Below, in pieces: positions 9,653-31,621 of a DNA stretch of 38,652 nt. Position 1 is the first letter of the stretch, and every line of letters starts with the position of its first letter. Both the position numbers and the translations under genes were made by a program. Below the pieces are notes generated by a model. It did not search any database. It was not told where the DNA came from and saw only the letters and a program-made list of their open reading frames with translations. The DNA is from a virus (taxonomy: Duplodnaviria > Heunggongvirae > Uroviricota > Caudoviricetes). The stretch is from the IMG/VR virus record IMGVR_UViG_2671180727_000010; one strand, 5' to 3'.

Positions 9653-11227
9653 TCACTCGTTCTCTTGAGTAGATGAGTCCCCATTCCCTCGGGGTTGATC
9701 TTGCCCGCTTTCTTGGGCTGCACCACGATCATAAGTAAGTACTGACTTATTTTCAAGGGTATTTAGATCATTTTTTGGAGGAAAATTCAAGAGATCTTTA
9801 TCAAATTCCTTTTTCATCGCCTCAGTAATGTTCGGGAAAATCTTCTCAATAAGCATTTCCATCTGGTGACGACGTACAGAGTCCGGTGCCTGAAGTAATG
9901 ACAGTTTCTCGGCAACAGAAAATTCATCAGTAAGGCCACGAATATCGAAACTTTCTGGATATGCAATTAAAGAGTGGTCTTCGTCCAGATCTACCCCCAT
10001 CCATTTCGCAACCAGTAGCATGATTTGGCGTTCAGCCCTTTCCAGACGCTCTGCTTTTGTGACAAGCAAGCTATTTACACGCTGGAAGTCATACATTTTT
10101 GCGGCACCAGATGAATTATCGATTCCCTGTGCGTTGTCCTGCTTCGTTCGCTCACCAGCTACACCAACTGAATGGTAGATTTCGTTAATCACCGTCTTAA
10201 TCGTAGTGATGATCATCTGAGCTTGTTTCGGGTCTGGTGACAGATAAAACGGCTGGTTTCCACCTTCAGAATCGTAGGTGAAGACTCGCTTTGTGCCCAT
10301 TTCAAGCACTTTAGTGTGGTTTTCATCACCAGGTAAAAGCGACTGTACCGGTATAGCCAACTGGCTAAATGTCTGATCCTGAATAATGGCATCAAGGTTT
10401 GACAGATAGTTTGCAACCGCACGATCAAGATAAGCGATATCATCGATCAACGATGGGCTGAAATACGGTGATTCACTTTCTCCAATACAATCAACAGGAA
10501 ACACAGGAACTACGCCGAGATTATGCTCACCGCTATCCTCTAAAATTACTTTTGCCTGACGGCGACCTGCTCCACCAGCGCCCTTCTTCACTTCCTCACG
10601 GAACAGATACCACTCGTTTTGTGTCCACAGACGATAACGTTGGTATTCCTGACCTGTAGAAGTAAAAGGATCTGCGTCATCACGAGCGACTTCCACAATT
10701 AACGCCCACAACATATTCCCGTCGTCGTCCCATGCCACATCCAGCATTTGCTGAGGTGAAATCCAGTAGGCGTAGGCGCGAGCATCTTTCTTTTTCTCGT
10801 CAGCTACTGACTCAACATCACCACTCATCGTGCTATCGACAACAACCCATATGCGACCGTAAATAGACGACTGCAAATCAATAGCGGCCATAAATGAGTC
10901 AATAGAGGCATTCTGGCGAGTCGCACGTTTCCAGAAATTGCGGATCTGCTCTGGTGCCTCTTCGATATTTCTATGAATGTCTTCTTTAAAGAGATATTTG
11001 TTGATGAGGTTTACCACCTCACGAGTGTGGTTGAAGCGATAAGCACGTTCAACTCGCTCCTTAAACTCCTGATCTCCCTCTTTAAAGTAACGAAAGATAT
11101 TGTCTGTAAACCAACCACGCCCGCCAGCGTAAGTGCTGGCGAGGAAGTCCCAATGTTCTTTTTTCTTTTCGTATTCCGGGTGGCGTCGCGCCACCAGATC
11201 CTTAATTTGTTTGTCGTTCAATTCCAT
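9653..11227 (-). CDS. Portal protein (putative)
   Basis: 524-aa ORF immediately downstream of terminase large subunit; size and position typical of a portal. Confidence 0.55.
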   Translation of the reverse strand: MELNDKQIKDLVARRHPEYEKKKEHWDFLASTYAGGRGWFTDNIFRYFKEGDQEFKERVERAYRFNHTREVVNLINKYLFKEDIHRNIEEAPEQIRNFWKRATRQNASIDSFMAAIDLQSSIYGRIWVVVDSTMSGDVESVADEKKKDARAYAYWISPQQMLDVAWDDDGNMLWALIVEVARDDADPFTSTGQEYQRYRLWTQNEWYLFREEVKKGAGGAGRRQAKVILEDSGEHNLGVVPVFPVDCIGESESPYFSPSLIDDIAYLDRAVANYLSNLDAIIQDQTFSQLAIPVQSLLPGDENHTKVLEMGTKRVFTYDSEGGNQPFYLSPDPKQAQMIITTIKTVINEIYHSVGVAGERTKQDNAQGIDNSSGAAKMYDFQRVNSLLVTKAERLERAERQIMLLVAKWMGVDLDEDHSLIAYPESFDIRGLTDEFSVAEKLSLLQAPDSVRRHQMEMLIEKIFPNITEAMKKEFDKDLLNFPPKNDLNTLENKSVLTYDRGAAQESGQDQPRGNGDSSTQENE

Positions 11228-11253: not shown

Positions 11254-12510
11254 CTATCGAGAACCACCAAGAATAACACGGTTTTTGACTGGATACCTAC
11301 GATGTACTGGATAGCCCAATGCGTCTGCACTATGCTCAATGCCACCTGTCTTATCCATATCTCGTGTTCCAGGCTTGTAGATGACTTTTTCCAGTGAATC
11401 AATCAAATGCTTGCACTTCGGATCGATATACAGCCGGATATCTCCAGATGCGGTCATCAGCATTCGGTTAACAGCATTAACACGATCCGCAATTGGCGGG
11501 TGCTTTTTCGAATAATCGACACGTAAGAATCCCTTCTCTTTGAATATGTCGACGTCAGACTCCCCGCGAGCATGTTGGCGATAAGCACCTGCCGGATCTG
11601 GAAATACCGTTATCTGTGATTTCCAGCGCCAGAAGCGTCTCTCAAGCTCATCACAAACCTCTGCCGTGTTAGAGGAAAAGAGCACCAATTCATCAATTGC
11701 CCATAGCTCACCATTTGGCTGAGGTTGCAAAATTACTGAAGACATCGGGTCAATGTTGAAGTCCTGCCCTACCCATATAGGCAACCGAGGGTTGAACTGA
11801 AGCGGTTTTACATGCACGTTACGATCGAACGGGTAGTAAACGCGCCCGGACATGTTCTCAAAGCTCGCCAGGTACTCCTGAGCGAACGATTTCGGGTCCA
11901 TATCGTTCTTAGCAGCTTCAATTTCCGCCGTAGGTACAAACGGAGAATCGGCAGTTACAAACTGCCAGCTCTTCCACTGTCCCTTTCTTTGCAGCTCTAC
12001 GTTCTGGCCTATAGTCCACAGTTTGTGAAATTCCGAGAAGCCTTTTGGCGTACCAATGATCAGTGCACCGCCGCGTGTCGATGAAAGAGTAGGTCGTAAC
12101 ACCTTGTACCAGGTGTCAGCCTTCATATCCTGAAATTCATCAAGCACTACAAAATGCAACGCTACGCCGCGCAGAGTGTCAGGCTTATCAGCACCTTTGA
12201 GGGCGATCTCCGAACCGTTCTTCAACACGATTGTCATCGTGGTGTCGTTCTTTTTCCTAACCCACTTACGAGGCAGAACTTCCTGTAGATCGTCCCACAA
12301 AATCTGGCGAGCCATCTGGTAAGTAGGAGCGACATACCAGACTCTTTGCTTTTTTTCCTTTGCCGCCGCACGAATAATAGTGGAGATCGACAACCGGGAT
12401 TTTCCCCAGCGTCGACCAGCACAAACAACTTTAAATCGATGCGGAGACTGGAAGACTTTCATCTGTCCAGAATGCAGTTGCACAAGACTGAGCGAGGACG
12501 GGATTGCCAT
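11254..12510 (-). CDS. Terminase large subunit
   Basis: N-terminal Walker A VVCAGRRWGKS; Walker B-like VVLDEFQD; C-terminal nuclease-like region; stop/start overlap with the upstream terS-like gene. Confidence 0.85.
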   Translation of the reverse strand: MAIPSSLSLVQLHSGQMKVFQSPHRFKVVCAGRRWGKSRLSISTIIRAAAKEKKQRVWYVAPTYQMARQILWDDLQEVLPRKWVRKKNDTTMTIVLKNGSEIALKGADKPDTLRGVALHFVVLDEFQDMKADTWYKVLRPTLSSTRGGALIIGTPKGFSEFHKLWTIGQNVELQRKGQWKSWQFVTADSPFVPTAEIEAAKNDMDPKSFAQEYLASFENMSGRVYYPFDRNVHVKPLQFNPRLPIWVGQDFNIDPMSSVILQPQPNGELWAIDELVLFSSNTAEVCDELERRFWRWKSQITVFPDPAGAYRQHARGESDVDIFKEKGFLRVDYSKKHPPIADRVNAVNRMLMTASGDIRLYIDPKCKHLIDSLEKVIYKPGTRDMDKTGGIEHSADALGYPVHRRYPVKNRVILGGSR

Positions 12511-13142
12511 TATTCGTCCTCCCCTTCACTTCCATCATCTGTCGCATCAAATTCGCTTAGAGCTTCTTCTTCCAACGTCTCAAGCAATTCGTCATCGATG
12601 ATTTCAGGCTCGTCGTCTTCCTGACGTAATTTCGCCACCTGGGAAGGCGTAAGCTCACCAAATACCAGGTTCGGAATTTCTTCCTCGTCATTTTCCGCAT
12701 GATCCATGCCCAATGCTTTGGACGAAACTTCAAAGCATTTTGCAAGGGTATTACTGGCTCTCTGTAAGCTCTTGAGAGAATCCTCAATCGCCCCTAAAGG
12801 CTTACCCTCACGTTTGGCCGTAGTGACTTCGACCATCACCATCTGCCCCAACGCATACGCCCAGCCGTCATAACGTGTACGACGTTCTTCTATCTTTTCC
12901 GCACGGGCTTTAGCGCGAAGCTCTGCGTCAGATTTAAGAGACTCACGAACCATCTTCCCAACAGAGTCCGCGCCTTTCTCTAATCCTCGCTTTTTGAAAT
13001 GTCTGGAGAGTGTTTCACGACGAATGCCGTACTCTTCCTCCAGCTTTGAGAGTGTATATTCGCCTGACGTCCATTTGGCTTCAGCTTCGGCCCACTCCGC
13101 TGGTGTCAGGCGAGTTTTTACCTCGTCTTTTTCGACCGTCAT
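12510..13142 (-). CDS. Terminase small subunit (putative)
   Basis: 210 aa with N-terminal HTH-like segment (YTLSKLEEEYGIRRETLSRHFKKRG) and strongly acidic C-terminal tail; directly precedes terL. Confidence 0.6.
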   Translation of the reverse strand: MTVEKDEVKTRLTPAEWAEAEAKWTSGEYTLSKLEEEYGIRRETLSRHFKKRGLEKGADSVGKMVRESLKSDAELRAKARAEKIEERRTRYDGWAYALGQMVMVEVTTAKREGKPLGAIEDSLKSLQRASNTLAKCFEVSSKALGMDHAENDEEEIPNLVFGELTPSQVAKLRQEDDEPEIIDDELLETLEEEALSEFDATDDGSEGEDE

Positions 13143-13161
13143 AGATCCCTCTAAAACACAC

Positions 13162-13245
13162 AGAGCGCGTCCATGCGCTCTAAAACAACTTGTTTACTGC
13201 ATCTGCTAACCAACTTGTTTTCTGGGGTGTTTAATTAGGTCTGGC
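13162..13245 (-). promoter_or_regulatory. Late-operon promoter/leader region with two AAAACAA-N-TTGTTTT-type operator palindromes and a leader hairpin
   Basis: Palindromes at ~13182-13196 (AAAACAAcTTGTTTA) and ~13207-13221; hairpin AGAGCGC-gtccat-GCGCTCT at 13162-13181; TAATTAAACACC -10/leader motif shared with the early-gene promoters. Confidence 0.45.
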
Positions 13246-13337
13246 ATGTCTTACGAAGCCTGCTTCCGTATATATTTAATAAGTTACTTATTATTTATAT
13301 ATACAGATGCAGGTCTTTAAATAAGCTCCCAGACCGA

Positions 13338-13604
13338 TTACATCACCAGTAACTTCGCTTTGGCTCGACCTAAAGTGGTTAACCCAAGAGTCCGGCGGTG
13401 ATAGCGATTGTCACTGCGTTGGCGCGTATGCCCTTTCTCCACCAGCCCCTTTTTTATCAGAGCGCGAATTGAGAACTGGATACTTTGCTTGGTTGTCTTG
13501 TACGGCAAAACTTCAAGCAATTCGTCCAGGTCAAGTAGATGACCTCGCTCATAACCGAGATTGAGCGTTTTGATGATGTCCTTTTGTTTGTCGGTTAACG
13601 TCAT
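13338..13604 (-). CDS. Small winged-helix-like DNA-binding protein (88 aa), last gene of the five-gene operon
   Basis: Basic C-terminus and helix-turn-wing-like core (QSIQFSIRALIKKGLVEKG); ATG 9 bp after the stop of the upstream gene. Confidence 0.45.
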   Translation of the reverse strand: MTLTDKQKDIIKTLNLGYERGHLLDLDELLEVLPYKTTKQSIQFSIRALIKKGLVEKGHTRQRSDNRYHRRTLGLTTLGRAKAKLLVM

Positions 13605-13613
13605 GGCAAATCC

Positions 13614-14504
13614 TTATGCTGGTAAAGCAATTTCTAACGGTTTATCCAAAGGTTGTTTGTCGAATGCCAGCAGTGGCAGCGTGTCAGGCAGTCGACGGCC
13701 AAAGTCAGGGTTTCGGTACACACCATACAACGGAGACGTAAAGCTCAGGTTGTGAATGTCCTTGAGCAGCTTCACAATGCTGGCCTCGTCCACCAGACTG
13801 TCGGCAATGTCCTGAATCGTCGTGCCACGATTCCGCCCAGCTTTTGCCAGGGAACTGTTCTTATGGTAGTCCGCCACCAAATCGCGCAGCGCACGGCGAC
13901 GACGAGACTCGCTCATAGCGAACAACTCTTTGACGATCGCCTCGTTATCACCCGGGTCGGAGCGGAAATGGCGCTGGAACACACGCAGTGCACTTTCATA
14001 GCTCTTCGGTCGCTCAGGGCGGATGAACTTAAACCCTGCTTTCATGGCGAAGGGATTGTATTTGCTCATCGAGGACTGGATCTCAATGATTGGCCGGTCA
14101 TGCATCCTGCTAACCAGGTTAATCATTCTATAAGAGACGCCTACGCCACGATACTGAGTATCCACAACTGAGCGACTGATCACCGCAAAGTTGTTATTCA
14201 CGTACCGACCCCAGTACTGGTTAGCCACGGTGGTATTAGTGGTTGGTTTCAACTTAGGAAACATGCGGTGGCGAGGTGCCAACAGTAGTTTCGGGTAAGC
14301 CATAACCACGACGCCCACCAGACGGTCATCAAGTTCGCAGCGATAGTAAGTTGGCGCGAAAGGTTTGCCGTCTGTTTTGTAGTGAAGCGACTTAAGAGCG
14401 TGCCAGTCCTCTACAGTTCCCTTTGTAACAGTCATTCGCTCCAGAAAGTCCAGATGACGCGGAAACTCTTCAGGGCGGTAGCGTTTAATGATGATGTCCG
14501 TCAT
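13614..14504 (-). CDS. GNAT-fold acyltransferase-like protein with ~120-aa C-terminal extension
   Basis: Motif A-like Q-x-x-G-x-G (TQYRGVGVSYRMINLV) and motif B-like YNPFAMKAGFKF; ATGA start/stop overlap with the ABC ATPase gene. Confidence 0.5.
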   Translation of the reverse strand: MTDIIIKRYRPEEFPRHLDFLERMTVTKGTVEDWHALKSLHYKTDGKPFAPTYYRCELDDRLVGVVVMAYPKLLLAPRHRMFPKLKPTTNTTVANQYWGRYVNNNFAVISRSVVDTQYRGVGVSYRMINLVSRMHDRPIIEIQSSMSKYNPFAMKAGFKFIRPERPKSYESALRVFQRHFRSDPGDNEAIVKELFAMSESRRRRALRDLVADYHKNSSLAKAGRNRGTTIQDIADSLVDEASIVKLLKDIHNLSFTSPLYGVYRNPDFGRRLPDTLPLLAFDKQPLDKPLEIALPA

Positions 14505-15166
14505 GAATGGACCTCATCATGACTACCATTGTGATATTCCACCTTCACGCGTTCTTTGTAGTGCTTGGTGATCTGCATATCAGGGCGCAGCGCGTTCTTC
14601 AGGTCTTCGTGAGTCGTCGCCACCATTACCGTCGCACCAACCTTTCGAGCGGCACGCTGGAGGTTAGACGCCACAACCTGAGCGGTTACACGGTCGAGAA
14701 CAGCGCCGAACTCGTCAGCAGCCCATACTTTAGCGCCTGACTCAATCAGTTTGGCAATCTTGAGACGATATTTCTGGCCGTCTGACATTTCAGAAGGCTT
14801 GCGAACAAACAAATATGCATCGTTCAGACCAGCCATAGATAACAACCCAAGCGCATCACTGGTCGTTTTGCCCAACTGATCGATGACGTTAACCTCATTA
14901 TCGAAGGTAAAATCATCGATGGAGGCTACAGACAGCCCTTCATCCTTCATCTGTCGTTGCAACTCGCGCAGCACAACGGATTTGCCGGAACCGGATTGGC
15001 CGGTGATGTACACCACATCGCCCTGCTTCACTTCCAGCTCCAGATTGTCGTAAAGCGTCCACTCTTTTTCGTCCAGGCCAAGCCCGAACGACTCAGCGAT
15101 TTCCAACGTGCGCGTGGTTTTATTTACGCGTGTCTGAAACGATACGTTGATGATGTATTTGCTCAT
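14501..15166 (-). CDS. Stand-alone ABC-type ATPase (no membrane domain)
   Basis: Walker A GQSGSGKS; ABC signature-like MSDGQKYRL; Walker B VWAADEF; H-loop TTHED; ATGA overlap with the upstream ParB-like gene. Confidence 0.75.
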   Translation of the reverse strand: MSKYIINVSFQTRVNKTTRTLEIAESFGLGLDEKEWTLYDNLELEVKQGDVVYITGQSGSGKSVVLRELQRQMKDEGLSVASIDDFTFDNEVNVIDQLGKTTSDALGLLSMAGLNDAYLFVRKPSEMSDGQKYRLKIAKLIESGAKVWAADEFGAVLDRVTAQVVASNLQRAARKVGATVMVATTHEDLKNALRPDMQITKHYKERVKVEYHNGSHDEVHS

Positions 15167-15831
15167 GCAGCCATCTCCCCGGAAGAGATCTTCTCCGCAT
15201 ATGCCACAAATGCGTCTACCCCGCTTTCTCCCGTCATTTCTTCCATATGGGCAAGCAAATCACCAACAACAATGGCAGAGCCAGCAGGGAGCGTTTTAAA
15301 GCCCAATACGTCGACAACACGTACTTCTTCCGCTGCAACTTCACGACTGATCTCGGTGTGTTCATCCTTCTGTCGTTTAGTTTCTTCGCCAAGATCGATA
15401 ACTAGCGAGTCGGTGTCCATTTCTTCTGTCATACTGCCAACGAGAACATTCAACTCACGCTCTTCAAAGCCGAAAACCTCGATATCGTCCAGAACAAGCG
15501 ACTCAAGCTCTTTCTGTAGCTTAATTGCATCGTAATCAATGCTGGCAAGTCGGTTATCTTCAAGGCGCTTCGCACGAACCTCGTCATCACTGAGATCATC
15601 GCGAACAATAACCGGTACGCGCTCAAGTCCAGCAAAAATTGCAGCCTCACGGCGGCCGTGGCCAGTAATAATTACGTCGTTCTTATCGACCGTAATTGGC
15701 TGGTCAAATCCGCGCTTTTTAATGGCTGCGGCCAGATCTCTGATCTGCTGTTCATCATGCTTTTTGGCATTCATCTCATAGGGAATAAGATCTGCCGGGT
15801 CGCGATATACGATTTCAAACTTTTTGGTCAT
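15163..15831 (-). CDS. ParB/Srx (ParB N-terminal nuclease-like) domain protein
   Basis: Motif ITGHGRREAA (ParB box GxxRxxA); ATG at 15831 preceded by AAGGAG and overlapping the upstream stop as TAATG (track ORF extends to a GTG at 15864). Confidence 0.7.
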   Translation of the reverse strand: MTKKFEIVYRDPADLIPYEMNAKKHDEQQIRDLAAAIKKRGFDQPITVDKNDVIITGHGRREAAIFAGLERVPVIVRDDLSDDEVRAKRLEDNRLASIDYDAIKLQKELESLVLDDIEVFGFEERELNVLVGSMTEEMDTDSLVIDLGEETKRQKDEHTEISREVAAEEVRVVDVLGFKTLPAGSAIVVGDLLAHMEEMTGESGVDAFVAYAEKISSGEMAA

Positions 15832-16529
15832 TACATACGCTCCTTGTAGTAGTCGACCAGCCACACCAGAGCCTCACCAGCGTTCTCCATTTCATTACCG
15901 GTGTTAATAGCCTGCTCTTTGATGATGTTTTTTATGGTTTCTGCAACACGATCTGACGCATCGAAAGTTACTTTGAAGCGCATGGTCTGATGTTCCGCAC
16001 CCACACGTTCGGTTTTCTCTCGTTTGTCGGTATCGACAGGCTCATCACTACCACGAGACAACGCCTCCAGTGCTTCAAGGTCGATTGCCGCCTCTTTTGC
16101 TAAAACCATCGAGATTTCGTCGTCATACGGGGCGATTTCAGACAGTTGATAGTCAAGTTCTGACTGAATTTCTTCAATGAAGCGTTGCAATGCGATTTGG
16201 TCGTCTTCACCGTATCGCTCGTTGTCCACCAGTGACATCTGTTTAGCTACGACATCGCTAATTTTGCCCACAGAAAGCACCGGAACCGTTGAAATTCCTT
16301 GCTCAATAGCAGCACGCCAGCGATGTTCGCCGCCGAGGATTTCAAAAAATCCATCTTCAAGTTCACGAGCCAAAATTGGCTTAAAAAAGCCCAATTTTTC
16401 GATAGAACCTTTCAGTTTTTCAAAATTCTGCGCACCAACCGAATTGGTGTTCCAGGTATTCGGGCGAAGGTTGGCAACATCAACCTGCAAAATCGTGATT
16501 TTTACATCCATTTTATTGCTACAATCCAC
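15831..16529 (-). CDS. ParB/Srx domain protein, first gene of the operon
   Basis: Motif ILGGEHRWRAA; acidic C-terminal half; start may be the in-frame ATG at 16511 instead. Confidence 0.7.
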   Translation of the reverse strand: MDCSNKMDVKITILQVDVANLRPNTWNTNSVGAQNFEKLKGSIEKLGFFKPILARELEDGFFEILGGEHRWRAAIEQGISTVPVLSVGKISDVVAKQMSLVDNERYGEDDQIALQRFIEEIQSELDYQLSEIAPYDDEISMVLAKEAAIDLEALEALSRGSDEPVDTDKREKTERVGAEHQTMRFKVTFDASDRVAETIKNIIKEQAINTGNEMENAGEALVWLVDYYKERM

Positions 16530-16593
16530 TAAGTAATCACTTACTTATTATAATAGCCAAATAACATACAAAAGGCACTAAGGAAAGAGGTTT
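16530..16593. promoter_or_regulatory. Divergent promoter region between the ParB operon and the helicase operon, with a palindrome
   Basis: TTGCTA ...TATAAT-like hexamers and dyad AAGTAATCACTTACTT (~16531-16546); strong RBS AGGAAAGAGG before the helicase ATG. Confidence 0.5.
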
Positions 16594-18153
16594 ATGACTG
16601 TTCGGATTGTATCTAACGCAGTAAATGCGCTTATTTCTGGCGCAGATGACAAGGTAAAGCAACTGGTGCAGCAAATGTTGAGCTACGAAGTCGAGACTGG
16701 CGACTGGAAGGGCACAAGCACGATGTTCAACTGGAGTAAAAACTCGTTCCCTGCTGGCTTTGCCAAGCCTGTAGCGGCGAACTTGAACAAGGCGGGCATC
16801 AAATGTGTTCATATCCGCAAAGACAAAGCCCCGGCGCTTGGTAAACCAAATCCGGCGGTTAACCCATTCCCATACAATCCTGATTATGCGTATCAGGATC
16901 AGACTGTGGAAACACTGGTTCGAGAGGGAATGATGATTGCGCAGATCGCTACTGGTGGCGGGAAATCTAACGTTGCCTGCAAAGCAGCTGCACGTATCGG
17001 TCGAATGACATTATTTTTAACAACCCGCTCTGTTCTGATGTTTCAAATGGCCGAAAACTTCCAGAGATCCATCGACTACCGCGCCGAAAATGGCGAACCG
17101 TGGTTAAAAGACCAAAAGGTTGGAGTCATTGGCTCGGGTGAGTTCCAGGTATCACGACATATCAACGTCGCTACAGTTCAAACTCTTGCAAGTTTCCTCG
17201 AAGAACCACCACGCGATGCAACACCAGATAAGAAAAGCTACCACCTCAAACGTCGGGAGTTGGTGAAACGCTTCCTTTCAAGTGTCTCTCTTCTTATTCT
17301 GGAAGAGGCGCATGAGTCTTCAGGCTCAAATTTCTATGACATCGCCAGATTATGTGTGAACGCAGACTATCGTCTGGCGCTTACAGCCACGCCGTTCATG
17401 AAGGATTCGACGGAAGCCAACATGCGCCTGATGGCGGTGGCCGGGCGAATTGAAATTAAAGTCACAGAAAAGTACCTGATTGATCGAGGCATTCTGGCAA
17501 AGCCGTACTTCCTTTATCATAAAGTTGCCTACAAGCCAGACGAGGCCAGAATCAAGGCCGAACTTGCCAACAAACACCTCAATTTTAGAGTTGGTATGAG
17601 CACCGCCTACCAAAAGGCTTATCAGTTGGGGATCGTGTATAATTTGGGACGTAACGAGGCCATAGTGCGCGAGGCATTGCTTTATAAGCAACATTCACTC
17701 AACTGCATGACTCTGGTTCGTCTTAAACGCCACGGGCAAATCCTGATGGAGATGATGAAGGAGTCAGGTCTTAAAGTTGATTTCATCTATGGGGAATCTA
17801 ACCAGACGACAAGGCAAGCAAAGCTGAATAGTTTAGCGTCTGGTGAAATAGATGTTTTAATAGGCTCGACTATTCTGGATGTTGGTGTTGATGTGCCAAG
17901 CGTTGGTGCGGTCATTCTTGCTGGTGGTGGGAAAGCAGAAGTTGAAATGAGACAGCGTGTCGGTCGTGGCTTACGAGCCAAAAAAAATCAGGCAAACGTG
18001 TGTTTTATCACTGATTTCATTGACATTAGCAACAAATACCTGTTGTCTCACTCTTATGAGCGAAAACACATCATCGACACCACACCTGGCTTTGCAGAAG
18101 GTGTATTGCCTATTGATGGAGCATTCGATTTTGGAGTTCTGAAACGAGATTAG
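16594..18153 (+). CDS. Superfamily-2 DEAD/DEAH-box-type helicase
   Basis: Motif I ATGGGKS, motif II LILEEAHE, motif III LTATP, motif VI QRVGRGLR. Confidence 0.85.
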   Translation: MTVRIVSNAVNALISGADDKVKQLVQQMLSYEVETGDWKGTSTMFNWSKNSFPAGFAKPVAANLNKAGIKCVHIRKDKAPALGKPNPAVNPFPYNPDYAYQDQTVETLVREGMMIAQIATGGGKSNVACKAAARIGRMTLFLTTRSVLMFQMAENFQRSIDYRAENGEPWLKDQKVGVIGSGEFQVSRHINVATVQTLASFLEEPPRDATPDKKSYHLKRRELVKRFLSSVSLLILEEAHESSGSNFYDIARLCVNADYRLALTATPFMKDSTEANMRLMAVAGRIEIKVTEKYLIDRGILAKPYFLYHKVAYKPDEARIKAELANKHLNFRVGMSTAYQKAYQLGIVYNLGRNEAIVREALLYKQHSLNCMTLVRLKRHGQILMEMMKESGLKVDFIYGESNQTTRQAKLNSLASGEIDVLIGSTILDVGVDVPSVGAVILAGGGKAEVEMRQRVGRGLRAKKNQANVCFITDFIDISNKYLLSHSYERKHIIDTTPGFAEGVLPIDGAFDFGVLKRD

Positions 18154-27753: not shown

Positions 27754-27819
27754 GAAACAATTTGTTTTCTTATGTGGCTTATTATCTCAATTAACAAAAG
27801 GCAGAAAACAAATTGTTTT
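27754..27819. promoter_or_regulatory. Two AAAACAA-N-TTGTTTT operator palindromes
   Basis: ~27754-27768 (GAAACAAtTTGTTTT) and ~27805-27819 (AAAACAAaTTGTTTT, perfect 7-1-7 dyad); -10-like GATAAT between them on the minus strand. Confidence 0.5.
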
Positions 27820-27902: not shown

Positions 27903-29936
27903 TTACTTAACCTGGTGGCCTGGTTTAGCACCAGCATCCGGGCTTAACAGGAAGATATCTTTCCCGCCGGGGCCAGCAGCCATCACCATGCCTTCGGAGA
28001 TACCGAAGCGCATTTTACGTGGTGCCAGGTTAGCCACCATAATGGTGTGACGACCAATCAGTGCCTGTGGATCTGGATAAGCGGAACGGATGCCTGAGAA
28101 GACATTACGCTTTTCACCACCGAGATCCAGCGTCAGACGAAGCAGTTTGTCAGAACCTTCTACAAACTCTGCGTTTTCAATCAGCGCCACGCGCAGGTCA
28201 ACTTTGGCGAAGTCGTCAAAGGTGATAGTTTCCTGAATCGGGTCGTCAGCCAGTGGGCCAGTTACCGGTGCGGCTGTGGCTTTCACTTCTTCTTTGGATG
28301 CTTCCACCAGTGCTTCAACCTGCTTCATATCGATGCGGTTATACAGTGCCTTGAACGGATTCACTTTATGGCCCAGCAGCGGTTGCTGGATACCATCCCA
28401 GGTCAGTTCTGTATTCAGGAATGCTTCTGCACGTTCAGTCAGTTTCGGCAGTACCGGCTTCAGGTACGTCATCAGCACGCGGAACAGGTTAATGCCCATA
28501 GAGCAAATCGCCTGCAGATCGGCATCGCGTCCTTCCTGCTTCGCCACCACCCACGGAGCCTGTTCATCGACATAGCGGTTAGCCAGGTCAGCCAATGCCA
28601 TGATTTCACGGATAGCTTTACCAAATTCGCGGCTTTCCCATGCTTCGCCAATCACTTCAGCGGCATCAGTAAAGGTTTTGTACAGTTGCGGGTCAGCCAG
28701 TTCGCTTGCCAGCACGCCGTCAAAACGCTTGTTGATAAAGCCTGCATTACGGGAGGCCAGGTTAACCACTTTGTTCACGATATCGGCATTCACGCGCTGA
28801 ACGAAATCCTCCAGGTTGAGATCGATATCATCAATGCGCGAAGAGAGTTTCGCAGTGTAGTAGTAACGCAGGCTGTCGGCGTCAAAATGATTCAGCCAGG
28901 TGCTGGCTTTAATAAAGGTGCCGCGAGACTTGGACATCTTCGCGCCGTTCACCGTCACATAGCCGTGAACAAACAGGTTGGTCGGCTTGCGGAAGTTGCT
29001 GCCTTCCAGCATGGCAGGCCAGAACAGGCTGTGGAAGTAAACAATATCTTTACCGATGAAGTGGTACAGCTCGGCGGTGGAGTCTTTCTTCCAGTATTCA
29101 TCGAAGCTGGTGGTATCGCCGCGCTTGTCGCACAGATTCTTGAAGGAACCCATGTAGCCAATCGGCGCGTCCAGCCAGACGTAGAAATATTTGCCCGGCG
29201 CGTTCGGAATTTCAAAACCGAAGTAAGGCGCATCTCGGGAGATATCCCACTGTTGCAGGCCGGATTCAAACCATTCCTGCATTTTGTTCGCCACCTGCTC
29301 CTGCAACGCGCCGCTGCGGGTCCATGCCTGCAACATTTCGCTGAAAGAAGGCAGATCAAAGAAGAAGTGTTCGGAATCACGCATTACCGGGGTAGCGCCA
29401 GAAACCACCGATTTCGGCTCGATCAATTCAGTCGGGCTATATGTTGCGCCGCAGACTTCACAGTTATCGCCGTATTGATCTGGCGCTTTACATTTCGGGC
29501 AGGTGCCTTTTACAAAACGATCCGGCAGGAACATGCCTTTTTCCGGGTCGTACAACTGAGAGATAGTGCGGTTTTTAATAAAACCGTTCTCTTTCAGGCG
29601 AGTATAGATAAGCTCAGACAACTGACGGTTCTCTTCGCTGTGCGTCGAGTGATAGTTGTCATAGCTGATGTTAAAGCCTGCGAAATCAGTCTGGTGTTCC
29701 TGACTCATTTCGCCAATCATCTTCTCCGGTGTGATACCAAGCTGCTGTGCTTTCAGCATGATCGGCGTACCGTGGGCATCGTCGGCACAGATGAAATTAA
29801 CCTCGTGGCCGCGCATTCGCTGGTAACGAACCCAGACATCAGCCTGGATGTGCTCCAGCATATGGCCGAGGTGGATTGAGCCGTTAGCGTACGGCAGCGC
29901 GCACGTCACCAGAATTTTCTTCGCGACTTGGGTCAT
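27903..29936 (-). CDS. metG: Methionine--tRNA ligase
   Basis: 677 aa from [28 protein letters not shown] (HIGH motif) with KMSKS; matches my recollection of Escherichia MetG almost throughout; the track ORF starts 43 codons upstream at an out-of-context ATG. Confidence 0.97.
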
Positions 29937-30093: not shown

Positions 30094-31194
30094 ATGAGCG
30101 AGTCCAAATCGCCGGATGCCCTGAGAGCAATGGTAGCCGGTACGCTGGCTAATTTTCAGCACCCAACCCTGAAACACAACCTGACTACGCTTAAAGCGTT
30201 ACACCATGTTGCGTTGATGGATGACACACTGCATGTCGAACTAATCATGCCTTTCGTGTGGAATAAGCCTTTTGAAGACCTGAAAGAGCAATGTAGTGGT
30301 GATCTGCTCCGTATCACTGGCGCAAAGGCTATTGACTGGAAGCTGTCGTACAACATTGCCACGCTTAAGCGCGTCAAAAACCAACCAGGCATTAATGGCG
30401 TTAAGAACATTATCGCCGTCAGCTCAGGCAAGGGCGGCGTGGGTAAATCCTCCACGGCGGTAAACCTGGCACTGGCGTTGGCTGCTGAAGGTGCGAAAGT
30501 TGGTATTTTGGATGCCGATATCTATGGTCCATCAATTCCAACCATGCTGGGCGCGGAAAACCAACGTCCAACCTCACCTGACGGTACTCACATGGCACCT
30601 ATCATGTCTCATGGCCTGGCAACCAACTCTATTGGTTATCTGGTCACCGACGACAATGCAATGGTGTGGCGTGGACCGATGGCCAGCAAGGCGCTGATGC
30701 AGATGTTGCAGGAAACTCTATGGCCTGATCTGGACTATCTCGTTCTCGATATGCCGCCGGGCACTGGTGATATTCAGTTGACGCTGGCGCAGAACATTCC
30801 TGTAACTGGTGCGGTTGTGGTAACTACGCCGCAAGACATCGCGCTGATCGATGCGAAGAAAGGCATTGTGATGTTCGAAAAAGTCGAAGTGCCGGTACTG
30901 GGTATCGTCGAAAACATGAGTGTGCATATTTGCAGTAACTGCGGTCATCACGAGCCAATTTTTGGCACCGGTGGCGCACAGAAACTGGCCGAGAAATACA
31001 ACACGCAGTTGTTAGGCCAAATGCCACTTCATATCTCTCTTCGTGAAGATCTGGATAACGGAACACCAACCGTTATTAGTCGTCCAGATAGCGAATTTAC
31101 GGCTATTTATCGTGACCTCGCAGATCGCGTTGCCGCCCAAATGTATTGGCAAGGTGAAGTAATACCTGGCGAAATCGCATTCCGCGCAGTGTGA
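30094..31194 (+). CDS. apbC: Fe-S cluster carrier ATPase ApbC/Mrp
   Basis: P-loop SGKGGVGKSSTAVNLA; CxxC motif (CSNCGHH); divergent from metG as in Escherichia; the true start may differ from the track start by a few codons. Confidence 0.93.
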   Translation: MSESKSPDALRAMVAGTLANFQHPTLKHNLTTLKALHHVALMDDTLHVELIMPFVWNKPFEDLKEQCSGDLLRITGAKAIDWKLSYNIATLKRVKNQPGINGVKNIIAVSSGKGGVGKSSTAVNLALALAAEGAKVGILDADIYGPSIPTMLGAENQRPTSPDGTHMAPIMSHGLATNSIGYLVTDDNAMVWRGPMASKALMQMLQETLWPDLDYLVLDMPPGTGDIQLTLAQNIPVTGAVVVTTPQDIALIDAKKGIVMFEKVEVPVLGIVENMSVHICSNCGHHEPIFGTGGAQKLAEKYNTQLLGQMPLHISLREDLDNGTPTVISRPDSEFTAIYRDLADRVAAQMYWQGEVIPGEIAFRAV

Positions 31195-31231: not shown

Positions 31232-31621
31232 CTACATCACGGGACAATCATCAAACTCGCCACTTCTTGCGTCGTTGATAATGTGAGTGATCACACCAAA
31301 CACGGCATTGCTGCCCGTGCATCCATCGTCATCCTTTGGCAATGCTTCCTTCTTACCGGTTCTTAAATCCTCCAGATGCTGACGTGGGTACTTCCGGTAT
31401 CTTTTTACGCGATATTCCCCATCCAGAGCGCATACAAGCAGAGAACCATCAACCGGGGTAAGTGAGGAATCGACCACCAGCAATGCACCCTGTAATATTC
31501 CCTCACGATGATGACTATCAGCTGCCCTCATGAAGTAGGTCGCTGAAGGATGTCTAATTATCTGCTGATCAAGAGAAATACGGCTCTCAGCATAATCCGC
31601 CGCAGGAGAAGGGAAGCCCAT
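31232..31621 (-). CDS. UmuD'-like S24 peptidase-fold protein, genetically pre-truncated (begins at the residue equivalent to the UmuD cleavage product)
   Basis: MGFPSPAADYAESRISLDQQIIRHPSATYF... aligns with UmuD from its Cys24-Gly25 cleavage site onward (my recollection of UmuD); the GDSM Ser motif is replaced by ADSHH; RBS AAGAGG; LexA box immediately upstream; no umuC-like gene adjacent. Confidence 0.75.
   Translation of the reverse strand: MGFPSPAADYAESRISLDQQIIRHPSATYFMRAADSHHREGILQGALLVVDSSLTPVDGSLLVCALDGEYRVKRYRKYPRQHLEDLRTGKKEALPKDDDGCTGSNAVFGVITHIINDARSGEFDDCPVM

What the first reader, a model, noticed from the sequence alone, without database searches (positions are those of the whole stretch)
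13338..16529. Coupled five-gene operon (ParB-like, ParB-like, ABC ATPase, GNAT-like, winged-helix) directly upstream of the terminase genes
Five minus-strand genes are fused by start/stop overlaps (TAATG at 15829-15833, ATGA at 15163-15166 and 14501-14504, 9-bp gap at 13605-13613), so they are very probably made and used together. The domain mix is two ParB/Srx proteins (GHGRREAA and GGEHRWRAA), a minimal ABC ATPase with no transporter partner, a GNAT-fold protein with both acyl-CoA motifs plus an unexplained 120-aa tail, and a small DNA-binding protein. I do not recognise this as any standard phage module. It occupies the slot where lysis genes usually sit in lambdoid and P22-like phages, and no holin or endolysin is visible anywhere in the window. 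Hypotheses: a DNA modification or anti-restriction machine (an ATPase plus acyltransferase acting on DNA bound by ParB-like proteins), a packaging accessory module, or a prophage-borne defence system.
Basis: partly seen in the sequence, partly recalled or inferred. Interest (0 to 1): 0.8.

Follow-up and report, generated by a model that had tools for sequence, protein, structure and literature searches.

The report
Phage ParB-guided ABC–GNAT DNA-acylation cassette
The five coupled genes are real and form an expanded version of a widespread but never-tested phage gene cassette (ParB-like protein plus an ATPase-linked acyltransferase, next to the DNA-packaging genes) that most likely puts an acyl mark on phage DNA, here carried by a phage-plasmid present in about 1 in 20 complete E. 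coli genomes.

Summary
Five minus-strand genes (ParB-like, ParB-like, ABC ATPase, GNAT-fold protein, winged-helix protein) are joined by the stated overlaps, upstream of terS/terL/portal. All five domain calls hold.

The window is an SSU5-type phage-plasmid. It is present in 248 of 5426 complete E. coli genomes, always on plasmids.

The order helicase(−)/ParB/ParB/ABC/GNAT/terL is kept in 58 of 58 diverged relatives.

The core is an ABC ATPase plus a GNAT. In most other viruses these two are one fused protein. That protein is also found fused to ParB, to family A and family B DNA polymerases, and carrying an intein.

In short-form bacterial phages, a ParB2-type gene sits directly upstream in 55 of 68 loci. 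Terminase genes usually lie a few hundred bases downstream.

Aravind's group predicted this ABC–GNAT family to acylate a DNA base. I found no experimental test.

The best reading is a ParB-assisted, ATP-dependent DNA acyltransferase that marks progeny DNA before packaging. Its identity as this cassette is near certain. The function has confidence about 0.5.

It is a new member of a known, predicted but uncharacterised kind. Interest is moderate.

The parts
15831..16511 (-). ParB-like protein 1, 226 aa from the ATG at 16511 (an alternative GTG start lies at 16529). It is Spo0J/Noc-like, with the invariant motifs GG.HR and DN.RYG.DD.
   Evidence: PF02195 scores E 3.3e-13 and phrog_723 scores 2e-79. 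phmmer aligns residues 7-154 to T. thermophilus Spo0J 1vz0 residues 23-171. Motif invariance was measured in 65 orthologues.
15163..15831 (-). ParB-like protein 2, 222 aa, with motifs N.K.H, GHGR and R..DN. It is the ParB type found fused to phage DNA methyltransferases and found directly upstream of fused ABC-GNAT genes in other phages.
   Evidence: PF02195 scores 1.5e-8, phrog_930 scores 1e-112 and phrog_498 (ParB-methyltransferase) scores 5e-32. PADLOC MTase_II N-terminal region scores 2.9e-17. The Pmp13 and phiNIH1.1 partner proteins hit the ParB2 HMM at 1e-34 to 7e-36.
14501..15166 (-). Stand-alone ABC-type ATPase, 221 aa, with all catalytic motifs intact and no membrane partner in the operon.
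   Evidence: PF00005 scores 5.8e-13 and phrog_293 scores 6e-59. Motif invariance and 54% median identity were measured in 70 orthologues. In distant relatives it is fused to the GNAT.
13614..14504 (-). GNAT-fold acyltransferase-like protein, 296 aa. The acyl-CoA motifs are intact. A helical region of about 100 aa (about residues 160-255) precedes the last strands.
13338..13604 (-). Small winged-helix DNA-binding protein, 88 aa, with a basic disordered wing. It is the fastest-evolving member of the operon.
   Evidence: phrog_900 scores 2e-45. The model topology is H-b-H-H-b-wing-b. Foldseek hits LexA, BlaI and DtxR winged-helix domains. Median identity is 27%. It is present in 56 of 58 diverged loci.
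16512..16593 (.). 82-bp divergent control region between ParB1 and the helicase gene. A perfect TATAAT hexamer lies on the minus strand at 16552-16547, with no good -35.
   Evidence: Read directly from the sequence. The consensus promoter scan found nothing above chance.
16594..18153 (+). Divergently transcribed SF2 (UvsW/ResIII-type) helicase. It is always adjacent to the operon and is a possible sixth partner.
   Evidence: ResIII, DEAD and Helicase_C score E about 1e-14. It is adjacent in 58 of 58 diverged loci. Helicases also lie near ABC-GNAT in pT24 and Nonlabens P12024S.
13143..13337 (.). Intergenic region between the operon and terS. It holds a conserved palindrome at 13259-13313 with an AT-rich core. 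It holds two AACAANTTGTT-type sites at 13184-13194 and 13209-13219. It holds a terminator-like hairpin at 13161-13182. The published linear SSU5 and Cyrano records end at 13277/13276.
   Evidence: The function (cos/pac site, operator or loading site) was not established.
12510..13142 (-). Putative small terminase, a DNA-binding protein of 210 aa whose stop overlaps the terL start.
   Evidence: phrog_867 scores 2e-100. The assignment also rests on position and on its conservation in 55 of 58 loci.
11254..12510 (-). Large terminase.
   Evidence: Terminase_6N scores 3e-9 and phrog_2/phrog_10250 hit.
9653..11227 (-). Portal protein (context only).
   Evidence: Assigned by its position after terL. 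Relatives at the same position are annotated as portal.

Best explanation
The operon is the SSU5-lineage version of a widespread phage cassette. Its core is an ABC-type ATPase coupled to a dedicated GNAT-fold acyltransferase, usually partnered by a ParB/Srx-fold protein and usually placed beside the terminase genes. Here the enzyme is split into two polypeptides. There are two ParB paralogues, and a small winged-helix protein closes the operon.

Most likely mechanism:
1. The ParB-like proteins bind phage DNA and recruit or activate the catalytic pair on double-stranded DNA. ParB1 is Spo0J-like and probably retains a helix-turn-helix domain. ParB2 is the type that accompanies phage DNA methyltransferases.
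2. ATP-driven dimerisation and hydrolysis by the ABC subunit clamps the DNA or makes it accessible.
3. The GNAT subunit transfers an acyl group from an acyl-CoA to an exocyclic amine of a base.
4. Progeny genomes are therefore marked after replication and before packaging, and are protected from host restriction in the next cell.
5. The winged-helix protein is a regulator or site-specificity factor.

Shown: domain identities, intact catalytic motifs, conservation, gene fusions and gene contexts.

Inferred: DNA as the substrate, the role of each subunit, the chemistry, and the anti-restriction benefit.
For: Identity of the cassette:
- The GNAT profile (A1) retrieves 861 relatives. Most are 450-500 aa proteins with an N-terminal ABC_tran domain.
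- phrog_11143 covers both window proteins.
- A fused representative hits Tenacibaculum phage pT24, the exemplar named in the literature (E 6e-15; locus).

DNA as the target:
- ParB+ABC+GNAT occurs as a single ORF in L187, L211 and L219, and in five 50%-identity cluster representatives.
- ABC+GNAT+UDG+PolA forms a 1300-aa ORF in L113.
- PolB+ABC+GNAT fusions occur in L091, P0205 and P0174.
- In Nonlabens P12024S the gene sits in a replication module between primase and helicase.
- In Mu-like phiE255, gp29 plus a formyltransferase occupy the position that mom holds in Mu (the mom position is from my own knowledge).
- In Firmicute prophages the gene is followed by Amidoligase_2, and in L089 also by GGACT.

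ParB partnership:
- A ParB-like ORF lies directly upstream in 55 of 68 short-form loci.
- The same is seen in LE4, Pmp13, phiNIH1.1 and AnClar.
- ParB2 resembles the ParB domain of ParB-methyltransferase fusions.
- ParB is experimentally required for a phage thymine dioxygenase to act on dsDNA (PMC13229309).
- In the Gordonia DR cluster, the same pre-terminase slot holds ParB+TET/JBP in CaiB (PMC9302106) and ParB+HNH+ABC-GNAT+MTase in AnClar.

Catalytic competence:
- The ATPase motifs and the GNAT acyl-CoA motifs are invariant.

Structural precedent:
Against: - No experiment on any member was found: 10 literature searches, and the primary prediction paper (Iyer 2013) could not be read.
- Nothing in the sequence identifies the acceptor. 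GNATs acylate proteins, tRNAs and small molecules as readily as bases.
- Mom is not the best structural match, and there is no sequence membership in the Mom family.
- The very frequent adjacency to terS/terL also fits a packaging role. Figures: 45 of 80 and 42 of 80 fused loci with terL directly upstream; 30 of 65 short-form loci with terL within 3.2 kb downstream; 58 of 58 SSU5-type loci.
- Many archaeal members lack any detectable ParB.
- SSU5 already encodes two DNA methyltransferases.
- Expression timing is unknown.
Confidence: 0.5

Rival explanations
1. Packaging-initiation accessory complex. The ParB-like and winged-helix proteins recognise or nick the cos/pac region. The ABC ATPase remodels the nucleoprotein complex for TerS/TerL. 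The GNAT acylates a packaging protein or has a structural role.
For: - The cassette is next to terminase genes in at least five unrelated virus lineages.
- A conserved palindrome lies between the operon and terS, and the SSU5 and Cyrano linear records end inside it.
- In AnClar the ParB-like gene spans the cohesive ends and an HNH gene lies beside it.
- ParB-fold proteins can be nicking nucleases (PMC5512222).
Against: - ABC-GNAT is fused to DNA polymerases and lies in replication modules away from terminase.
- In Mu-like phiE255 it is not near the terminase genes.
- The pre-terminase slot also holds bona fide DNA-modification cassettes.
- Intact acyl-CoA motifs have no precedent in packaging.
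- The shared record ends may simply reflect one record being co-linearised to the other.
Confidence: 0.15
2. ATP-dependent acylation of a non-DNA target, such as a host or phage protein, a tRNA or a nucleotide precursor. The purpose would be host takeover or anti-defence, with the ParB proteins acting as NTP-binding regulators rather than DNA guides.
For: - Phage GNATs such as Rac acetylate RNA polymerase (PMC7824862).
- ParB-CTPase folds fused to acetyltransferases bind GTP, with unknown targets (PMC12704722).
- ATPase-coupled GNATs acetylate tRNA (TmcA, established knowledge).
Against: - Fusion partners and neighbours are all DNA enzymes or DNA-binding proteins: ParB, PolA, PolB, UDG, helicase, terminase and methyltransferase.
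- ParB1 aligns with Spo0J through its DNA-binding region.
Confidence: 0.2
3. A defence or superinfection-exclusion system carried by the prophage or phage-plasmid.
For: - The ABC protein hits the MADS components mad3 (1.8e-13) and mad8 (1.2e-8), and weakly hits PtuA, BrxD and DndF, in PADLOC.
- The element is a plasmid prophage.
Against: - Those hits are generic P-loop/ABC similarity.
- The GNAT has no PADLOC hit, and the other mad genes are absent.
- The module is a fixed backbone element beside the structural genes in 58 of 58 relatives, and it also occurs in isolated phages such as nickie, LE4 and AnClar.
Confidence: 0.05
4. Plasmid partition or maintenance functions of the phage-plasmid, a ParB-based segrosome.
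For: - ParB1 is Spo0J/Noc-like.
- PGAP names it a 'ParB/RepB/Spo0J family partition protein'.
- The element replicates as a plasmid.
Against: - There is no ParA in or near the operon. SSU5 has a ParA-like gene 30 kb away.
- The same module occurs in a chromosomally located relative (L083, on a 3.27-Mb contig) and in an integrase-carrying Firmicute prophage (L169).
- It is translationally coupled to an acyltransferase.
Confidence: 0.03

Closest known systems
ABC ATPase-GNAT predicted DNA base acylation system of phages (Iyer et al. 2013 NAR 41:7635, as restated in Iyer et al. 2021, PMC7824862; exemplar Tenacibaculum phage pT24; COG2401/MK0520-type 'ABC-type ATPase fused to acetyltransferase').
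   Same: It has the same GNAT family and the same ABC family: profile hits E 1e-15 to 1e-27 to fused proteins, hhalign probability 99.7 for AnClar gp2 against the fused family, and pT24 reached at 6e-15. It shares the viral context and the DNA-enzyme neighbours.
   Different: - The enzyme is split into two translationally coupled genes.
- In some relatives 1-3 small ORFs separate the two genes.
- The GNAT carries a helical insertion of about 100 aa.
- Two ParB paralogues replace the usual one or none.
- There is a dedicated winged-helix gene.
- No member, this one included, has been tested experimentally.
Phage Mu Mom (GNAT-fold DNA adenine N6-carbamoylmethyl transferase).
   Different: There is no sequence-family membership (no Pfam, PHROG or NCBIfam link). 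Mom works without an ATPase or ParB partner. The chemistry here is unknown.
ParB-dependent phage DNA-modifying enzymes: ParB-activated thymine dioxygenases (PMC13229309) and ParB-methyltransferase fusions (PMC12704722; phrog_498).
   Same: A non-partition ParB-fold protein partners a DNA-modifying enzyme. The genes often lie just before the terminase genes (CaiB). ParB2 is of the methyltransferase-associated type.
   Different: The catalytic partner is an ATPase-coupled acyltransferase, not a dioxygenase or methyltransferase. Two ParB paralogues are present.
TmcA/NAT10 ATP-dependent cytidine acetyltransferases (established knowledge).
   Same: The logic matches: an NTPase coupled to a GNAT that acetylates an exocyclic amine in a nucleic acid.
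   Different: Their ATPase is helicase-type, not ABC. Their substrate is RNA. They are not homologous beyond the GNAT fold.
ParABS partition systems and ABC transporters (the names carried by database annotations).
   Same: It shares the ParB N-terminal NTPase fold and the ABC nucleotide-binding domain.
   Different: There is no ParA and no transmembrane partner. The existing annotations ('partition protein', 'ABC transporter ATP-binding subunit') are misleading.

Membership tests
Phage ABC ATPase-GNAT predicted DNA-modification system | A GNAT-fold domain of this specific family, with intact acyl-CoA motifs. | tested here: met
Phage ABC ATPase-GNAT predicted DNA-modification system | An ABC-type ATPase, fused or adjacent, with intact catalytic motifs. 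| tested here: met
   PF00005 scores 5.8e-13. The genes are coupled by an ATGA overlap. The motifs are invariant. phrog_11143 spans both proteins.
Phage ABC ATPase-GNAT predicted DNA-modification system | The same family as the published exemplar, Tenacibaculum phage pT24. | tested here: met
   The link is transitive: window GNAT to fused representative P0161 (E 6.5e-25), then to pT24 BPT24_038 (tblastn 6e-15; own HMM 2e-32).
Phage ABC ATPase-GNAT predicted DNA-modification system | A viral context with DNA-metabolism partners. | tested here: met
   Partners include ParB, helicase, terminase, PolA/PolB fusions and methyltransferase.
Phage ABC ATPase-GNAT predicted DNA-modification system | Acylation of a DNA base. 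| not testable with these tools
   This needs LC-MS of virion DNA or in vitro assays. No published test was found.
Mom family (phage Mu) | Sequence membership in the Mom GNAT clade. | tested here: not met
   No Pfam, PHROG or NCBIfam link to Mom was found. The PDB sequence search is empty. Only a fold-level match exists, ranked 14th.
Mom family (phage Mu) | A stand-alone enzyme without an NTPase partner. | tested here: not met
   The enzyme is always coupled or fused to an ABC ATPase.
ParABS partition system | A ParB with an N-terminal NTPase domain plus a helix-turn-helix domain. | tested here: inconclusive
   ParB1 aligns to Spo0J residues 23-171, but no structure was modelled. ParB2 matches only the N-terminal domain.
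ParABS partition system | An adjacent ParA ATPase. | tested here: not met
   The operon has no ParA. In SSU5 the ParA-like gene lies about 30 kb away.
ABC transporter | A transmembrane permease partner. | tested here: not met
   The operon partners are ParB, GNAT and winged-helix proteins. In relatives the ATPase is fused to soluble DNA enzymes.
MADS or other PADLOC defence systems | A full gene set of the system. | tested here: not met
   Only the ABC protein hits mad3 and mad8. The GNAT has no hit, and the ParB proteins hit only methyltransferase N-terminal regions.
GNAT toxin-antitoxin (TacAT/AtaRT type) | A small GNAT of about 170 aa with an upstream RHH antitoxin. | tested here: not met
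   The GNAT is 296 aa, is coupled to an ATPase, and matches no TA family.

The most novel reading that the evidence does not exclude
The module may be a self-targeting DNA 'writer'. The ParB paralogues would load as NTP-gated clamps at a phage-specific site, possibly the conserved palindrome and repeats next to terS. They would spread along the concatemer and carry the ABC-GNAT enzyme with them. A previously unknown N-acyl base modification would then be written only on phage DNA, in step with packaging. This would be a new DNA modification chemistry and a new job for ParB clamps.
Probability: 0.2. Interest if true: 0.85.

Novelty: new member of a known kind. Interest (0 to 1): 0.55.

Why it matters
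If the prediction holds, this family would add a second GNAT-based DNA base modification system after Mom. It spans tailed viruses of Bacteria and Archaea: 861 relatives at E<=1e-3 in a 50%-identity clustered library, with Bathyarchaeia proviruses prominent.

It would also extend the emerging idea that ParB-fold proteins act as partners of DNA-modifying enzymes.

The SSU5-type version is the most convenient place to test this:
- It sits on a phage-plasmid found in 4.6% of complete E. coli genomes.
- Isolated phages exist (SSU5, Cyrano and PhiR41_1); SSU5 is recorded on Salmonella LT2 and PhiR41_1 on E. coli K-12 MG1655.
- The ATPase and the acyltransferase are separate genes, so each can be mutated on its own.

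There is also a practical point. Current annotations ('ABC transporter', 'partition protein', 'hypothetical') are misleading for a gene set present in hundreds of clinical plasmids.

Tried and rejected
- Direct family searches for the GNAT protein gave nothing usable: Pfam E 0.037, no NCBIfam hit, no PADLOC hit, and PDB sequence hits only at E about 1 (AlkD, chance). The fold had to be shown by modelling.
- The PHROG name for the GNAT, 'ABC transporter ATP-binding subunit', was rejected as carry-over from the fused COG.
- The ABC-transporter reading was rejected: there is no permease.
- The partition reading was rejected: there is no ParA, and the module also occurs in a chromosomally located relative (L083) and in an integrase-carrying prophage (L169).
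- The 'lysis slot' argument was rejected using the SSU5 annotation.
- The defence-system reading was rejected: only generic ABC hits.
- The toxin-antitoxin reading was rejected on size and ATPase coupling.
- A link between the GNAT and the phage-plasmid's methionyl-tRNA synthetase gene was considered and dropped. No synthetase is annotated in the SSU5 stretches examined (positions 1-99800), nor near the operon in the diverged loci listed.
- The sigma-70 promoter and terminator scan was not above chance.
- No tRNA genes were found in the window.
- My first ParB1 HMM was contaminated by an ORF fusion and hit everything. It was rebuilt with a length filter.
- Literature: 10 searches found no experimental study. 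Iyer 2013 (PMC3763556) and Krishnan 2020 (PMC7544218) are not held, so what they say about ParB association or about SSU5 could not be checked. One search was wasted on a non-specific phrase.
- The common end of the SSU5 and Cyrano records inside the palindrome was not taken as proof of a cos site, because one record may have been co-linearised to the other.

Full report
**1. The observation**

- ParB1 and ParB2 are joined by TAATG at 15829-15833.
- ParB2 and the ABC gene are joined by ATGA at 15163-15166.
- The ABC and GNAT genes are joined by ATGA at 14501-14504.
- A 9-nt gap at 13605-13613, containing AAGGA, precedes the last gene.

There are two small corrections.
- The first gene probably starts at the ATG at 16511, as annotated in near-identical phages, not at the GTG at 16529.
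- ParB2 starts at the ATG at 15831.

Downstream, after a 195-bp gap, lie a putative terS (13142-12510), terL (12510-11254) and portal. Upstream, 82 bp away and divergent, lies an SF2 helicase (16594-18153).

**2. The domains**

- Both ParB calls pass Pfam's threshold (E 3.3e-13 and 1.5e-8).
- ParB1 aligns with T. thermophilus Spo0J from the NTPase domain into the DNA-binding region (query residues 7-154).
- ParB2 is of the type found at the N-terminus of phage ParB-methyltransferase fusions (phrog_498 at 5e-32, PADLOC MTase_II at 2.9e-17).
- The ABC protein is a bare nucleotide-binding domain (PF00005 at 5.8e-13). Walker A, the SDGQ signature, Walker B DE, the D-loop and the H-loop are invariant in 70 orthologues.
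- The 296-aa protein has no significant Pfam, NCBIfam, PADLOC or PDB sequence match.
- The R-x-x-G-x-G and N..A..(A)GF acyl-CoA motifs are invariant.
Short-form relatives support this: they lack the helical region but keep the C-terminal F/Y-x-Y-x-G strand. This is an inference.
- The 88-aa protein models as helix-strand-helix-helix-hairpin with a basic disordered wing. It matches LexA, BlaI, HrcA and DtxR winged-helix domains.

**3. Where the window comes from**

- The region is 98-99% identical to Escherichia phages CMS-2020a, PhiR41_1 and Cyrano, 85% identical to Salmonella phage SSU5, and 80% identical to Klebsiella phage-plasmids.
- The operon occurs in 248 of 5426 complete E. coli genomes, always on plasmids; the listed records are 100-112 kb.
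- In SSU5 the holin, endolysin and spanins follow the tail-fibre genes at 27.5-29 kb. A ParA-like gene lies at 30.5 kb.
- The operon therefore replaces neither the lysis cassette nor the plasmid partition system.

**4. Conservation within the lineage**

- Homologues at 41-55% identity occur in 105-122 kb siphoviruses of Pseudomonas (nickie), Rhizobium (RHEph10), Stenotrophomonas and Xanthomonas, and in many metagenomic contigs.
- In 58 of 58 diverged loci with enough flank, the order helicase(−), ParB1, ParB2, ABC, GNAT, terL is kept. The winged-helix gene is detected in 56 and terS in 55.
- Small ORFs are sometimes inserted between the ABC and GNAT genes.
- ABC (54% median identity) and GNAT are the most conserved. 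The ParBs are intermediate (about 35%). The winged-helix protein is fastest-evolving (27%).

**5. Beyond the lineage: the informative comparisons**

A profile of the GNAT protein finds 861 relatives in the 50%-identity clustered library. Most are 450-500 aa proteins in which an ABC domain precedes the GNAT. This is a natural fusion of the two window genes.

*Archaeal proviruses.*
- The fused form is abundant in Bathyarchaeia proviruses.
- There terL lies directly upstream on the same strand in 45 of 80 viral loci and 42 of 80 genomic loci.

*Further fusions.*
- ParB+ABC+GNAT occurs in one ORF in L187, L211 and L219, and in five separate cluster representatives.
- ABC+GNAT+UDG+PolA forms a 1300-aa ORF in L113.
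- PolB+ABC+GNAT occurs in L091, P0205 and P0174.
- An intein interrupts the ABC domain in P0162.

*Cultured phages.*
- Leptospira LE4 and Pasteurella Pmp13 have ParB-like, then ABC-GNAT, then terminase, then portal.
- Streptococcus phiNIH1.1 has ParB-like, then ABC(-GNAT), then terL.
- Their ParB partners are of the ParB2 type, most clearly in Pmp13 and phiNIH1.1.
- Gordonia AnClar has ParB-like, HNH, ABC-GNAT, methyltransferase, terminase (hhalign probability 99.7).
- Its cluster-mate CaiB carries ParB plus TET/JBP and nucleotide enzymes in the same slot (PMC9302106).
- Mu-like phiE255 has ABC-GNAT plus a formyltransferase after the tail-fibre genes, where Mu carries mom.
- Nonlabens P12024S has the gene between primase and helicase.
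- Firmicute prophages follow it with Amidoligase_2, and in L089 also GGACT, before terL.

*Short-form survey.*
- Across 80 short-form viral loci, a ParB-like ORF lies directly upstream in 55 of 68 assessable cases.
- An SSU5-type terL lies within 3.2 kb downstream in 30 of 65 cases, typically 300-460 nt away.

**6. What is known**

- Iyer et al. [quoted passage not shown] They cite Iyer et al. 2013 and name Tenacibaculum phage pT24.
- A fused representative of the window family hits that pT24 gene (6e-15), so it is the same family.
- The 2013 paper is not in the library, so I could not check whether it covers the ParB association or SSU5.
- Ten literature searches found no experimental work on any member.
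- Two relevant precedents exist. A phage ParB is required for a thymine dioxygenase to act on dsDNA (PMC13229309). ParB folds are often fused to DNA methyltransferases in prophages, and one ParB-acetyltransferase fusion binds GTP (PMC12704722).

**7. Interpretation**

The identity of the operon as an expanded ParB + ABC-GNAT cassette is secure.

Fusion partners and neighbours are all DNA enzymes or DNA-binding proteins. The catalytic motifs are intact. I therefore favour an ATP-dependent acylation of phage DNA, assisted by ParB-fold proteins and made before packaging, with anti-restriction as the pay-off (confidence about 0.5).

The recurrent adjacency to terminase keeps a packaging-accessory role alive (0.15). 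However, the polymerase fusions, the replication-module contexts and the slot shared with bona fide modification cassettes argue that adjacency reflects late co-expression rather than a packaging function.

A non-DNA acyl acceptor cannot be excluded (0.2). Defence and partition readings have little support.

**8. The boundary with terS**

The 195-bp gap contains several features.
- A palindrome at 13259-13313 is conserved down to 80% relatives.
- There are two AACAANTTGTT-type sites.
- A hairpin lies just before the terS ribosome-binding site.
- The SSU5 and Cyrano linear records end at 13277/13276, inside the palindrome.

Whether this is a cos/pac site, an operator or a ParB loading site is open.

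**9. Verdict**

The finding is real and correctly dissected. It is a member of a family already predicted computationally and never tested. Its value is that it provides a tractable E. coli/Salmonella system for testing that prediction.

Noticed in passing
window 13184-13194, 22325-22335, 23560-23570, 24463-24473, 24947-24957, 27756-27766, 27807-27817: The palindromic motif AACAANTTGTT occurs 7 times in the window, against 0.06 expected. In its extended form it is often GAAAACAANTTGTTT. Most copies sit between a -10-like GATAAT/TATTAT hexamer and the ribosome-binding site of a minus-strand gene. One perfect copy, plus a one-mismatch copy at 13209, lies upstream of terS. It looks like the operator of a phage regulon that links terS with a set of small genes at 22-28 kb. 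The binding protein is unknown.
   Followed up: partly
window 13259-13313: A conserved imperfect palindrome lies here, with arms CCTGCTTCCGTATAT / ATATACGGAAGCAGG around an AT-rich core. It is unique in the window and is kept in relatives at 80-97% identity. The GenBank linear records of SSU5 and Cyrano both end inside it. It may be a cos/pac site or a protein loading site.
   Followed up: partly
window 27903-29936 (-), 30094-31194 (+), 31232-31621 (-): By the annotation of the 98%-identical phage PhiR41_1, the phage-plasmid carries a full-length methionyl-tRNA synthetase, an Mrp/ParA-like P-loop ATPase and a UmuD-like protein. None of the three is annotated in the SSU5 stretches examined (positions 1-99800), so they look like variable cargo.
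   Followed up: no
L113 2989-6891; L091 3448-7380; proteins P0205 and P0174: ABC-GNAT is fused in one reading frame to replicative DNA polymerases. In L113 the fusion is ABC-GNAT-UDG-PolA, 1300 aa. In L091 it is PolB-ABC-GNAT, about 1310 aa. These contigs are metagenomic viral contigs.
   Followed up: partly
P0162 (847 aa); L147 2993-5917: An intein with a LAGLIDADG/Hint domain interrupts the ABC domain of one ABC-GNAT protein (P0162). In L147 the neighbouring terL ORF is unusually long (about 975 aa against about 480 aa), which looks like a similar insertion, but this was not checked against domain models.
   Followed up: no
L092-L167 and L168-L247 (Bathyarchaeia proviruses): Many IMG/VR contigs end exactly at the 3' end of the fused ABC-GNAT gene, which follows terL. 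The gene seems to be the terminal gene of these archaeal proviruses, or of the region called viral.
   Followed up: no
L334 3926-5658 (Burkholderia phage phiE255 gp29-gp30): In this Mu-like phage, ABC-GNAT is paired with a formyltransferase-family protein (PF00551), at the place where Mu carries com-mom. This hints at a more elaborate acyl donor or a two-step modification.
   Followed up: no
L088 2113-6026; L089 6001-9344; L169 7983-10400: In Firmicute prophages (Thermincola, Fredinandcohnia) the ABC-GNAT gene is followed by an Amidoligase_2 gene, and in L089 by a gamma-glutamyl cyclotransferase (GGACT) gene, ahead of terL. This suggests further processing of the transferred group.
   Followed up: no
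PHROG phrog_886; RefSeq PGAP annotation of E. coli plasmids (e.g. NZ_CP124417.1): The GNAT-fold protein is named 'ABC transporter ATP-binding subunit' in PHROGs and RefSeq phage records, and 'hypothetical protein' in PGAP. ParB1 is named a 'partition protein'. These names are misleading and have propagated widely.
   Followed up: yes
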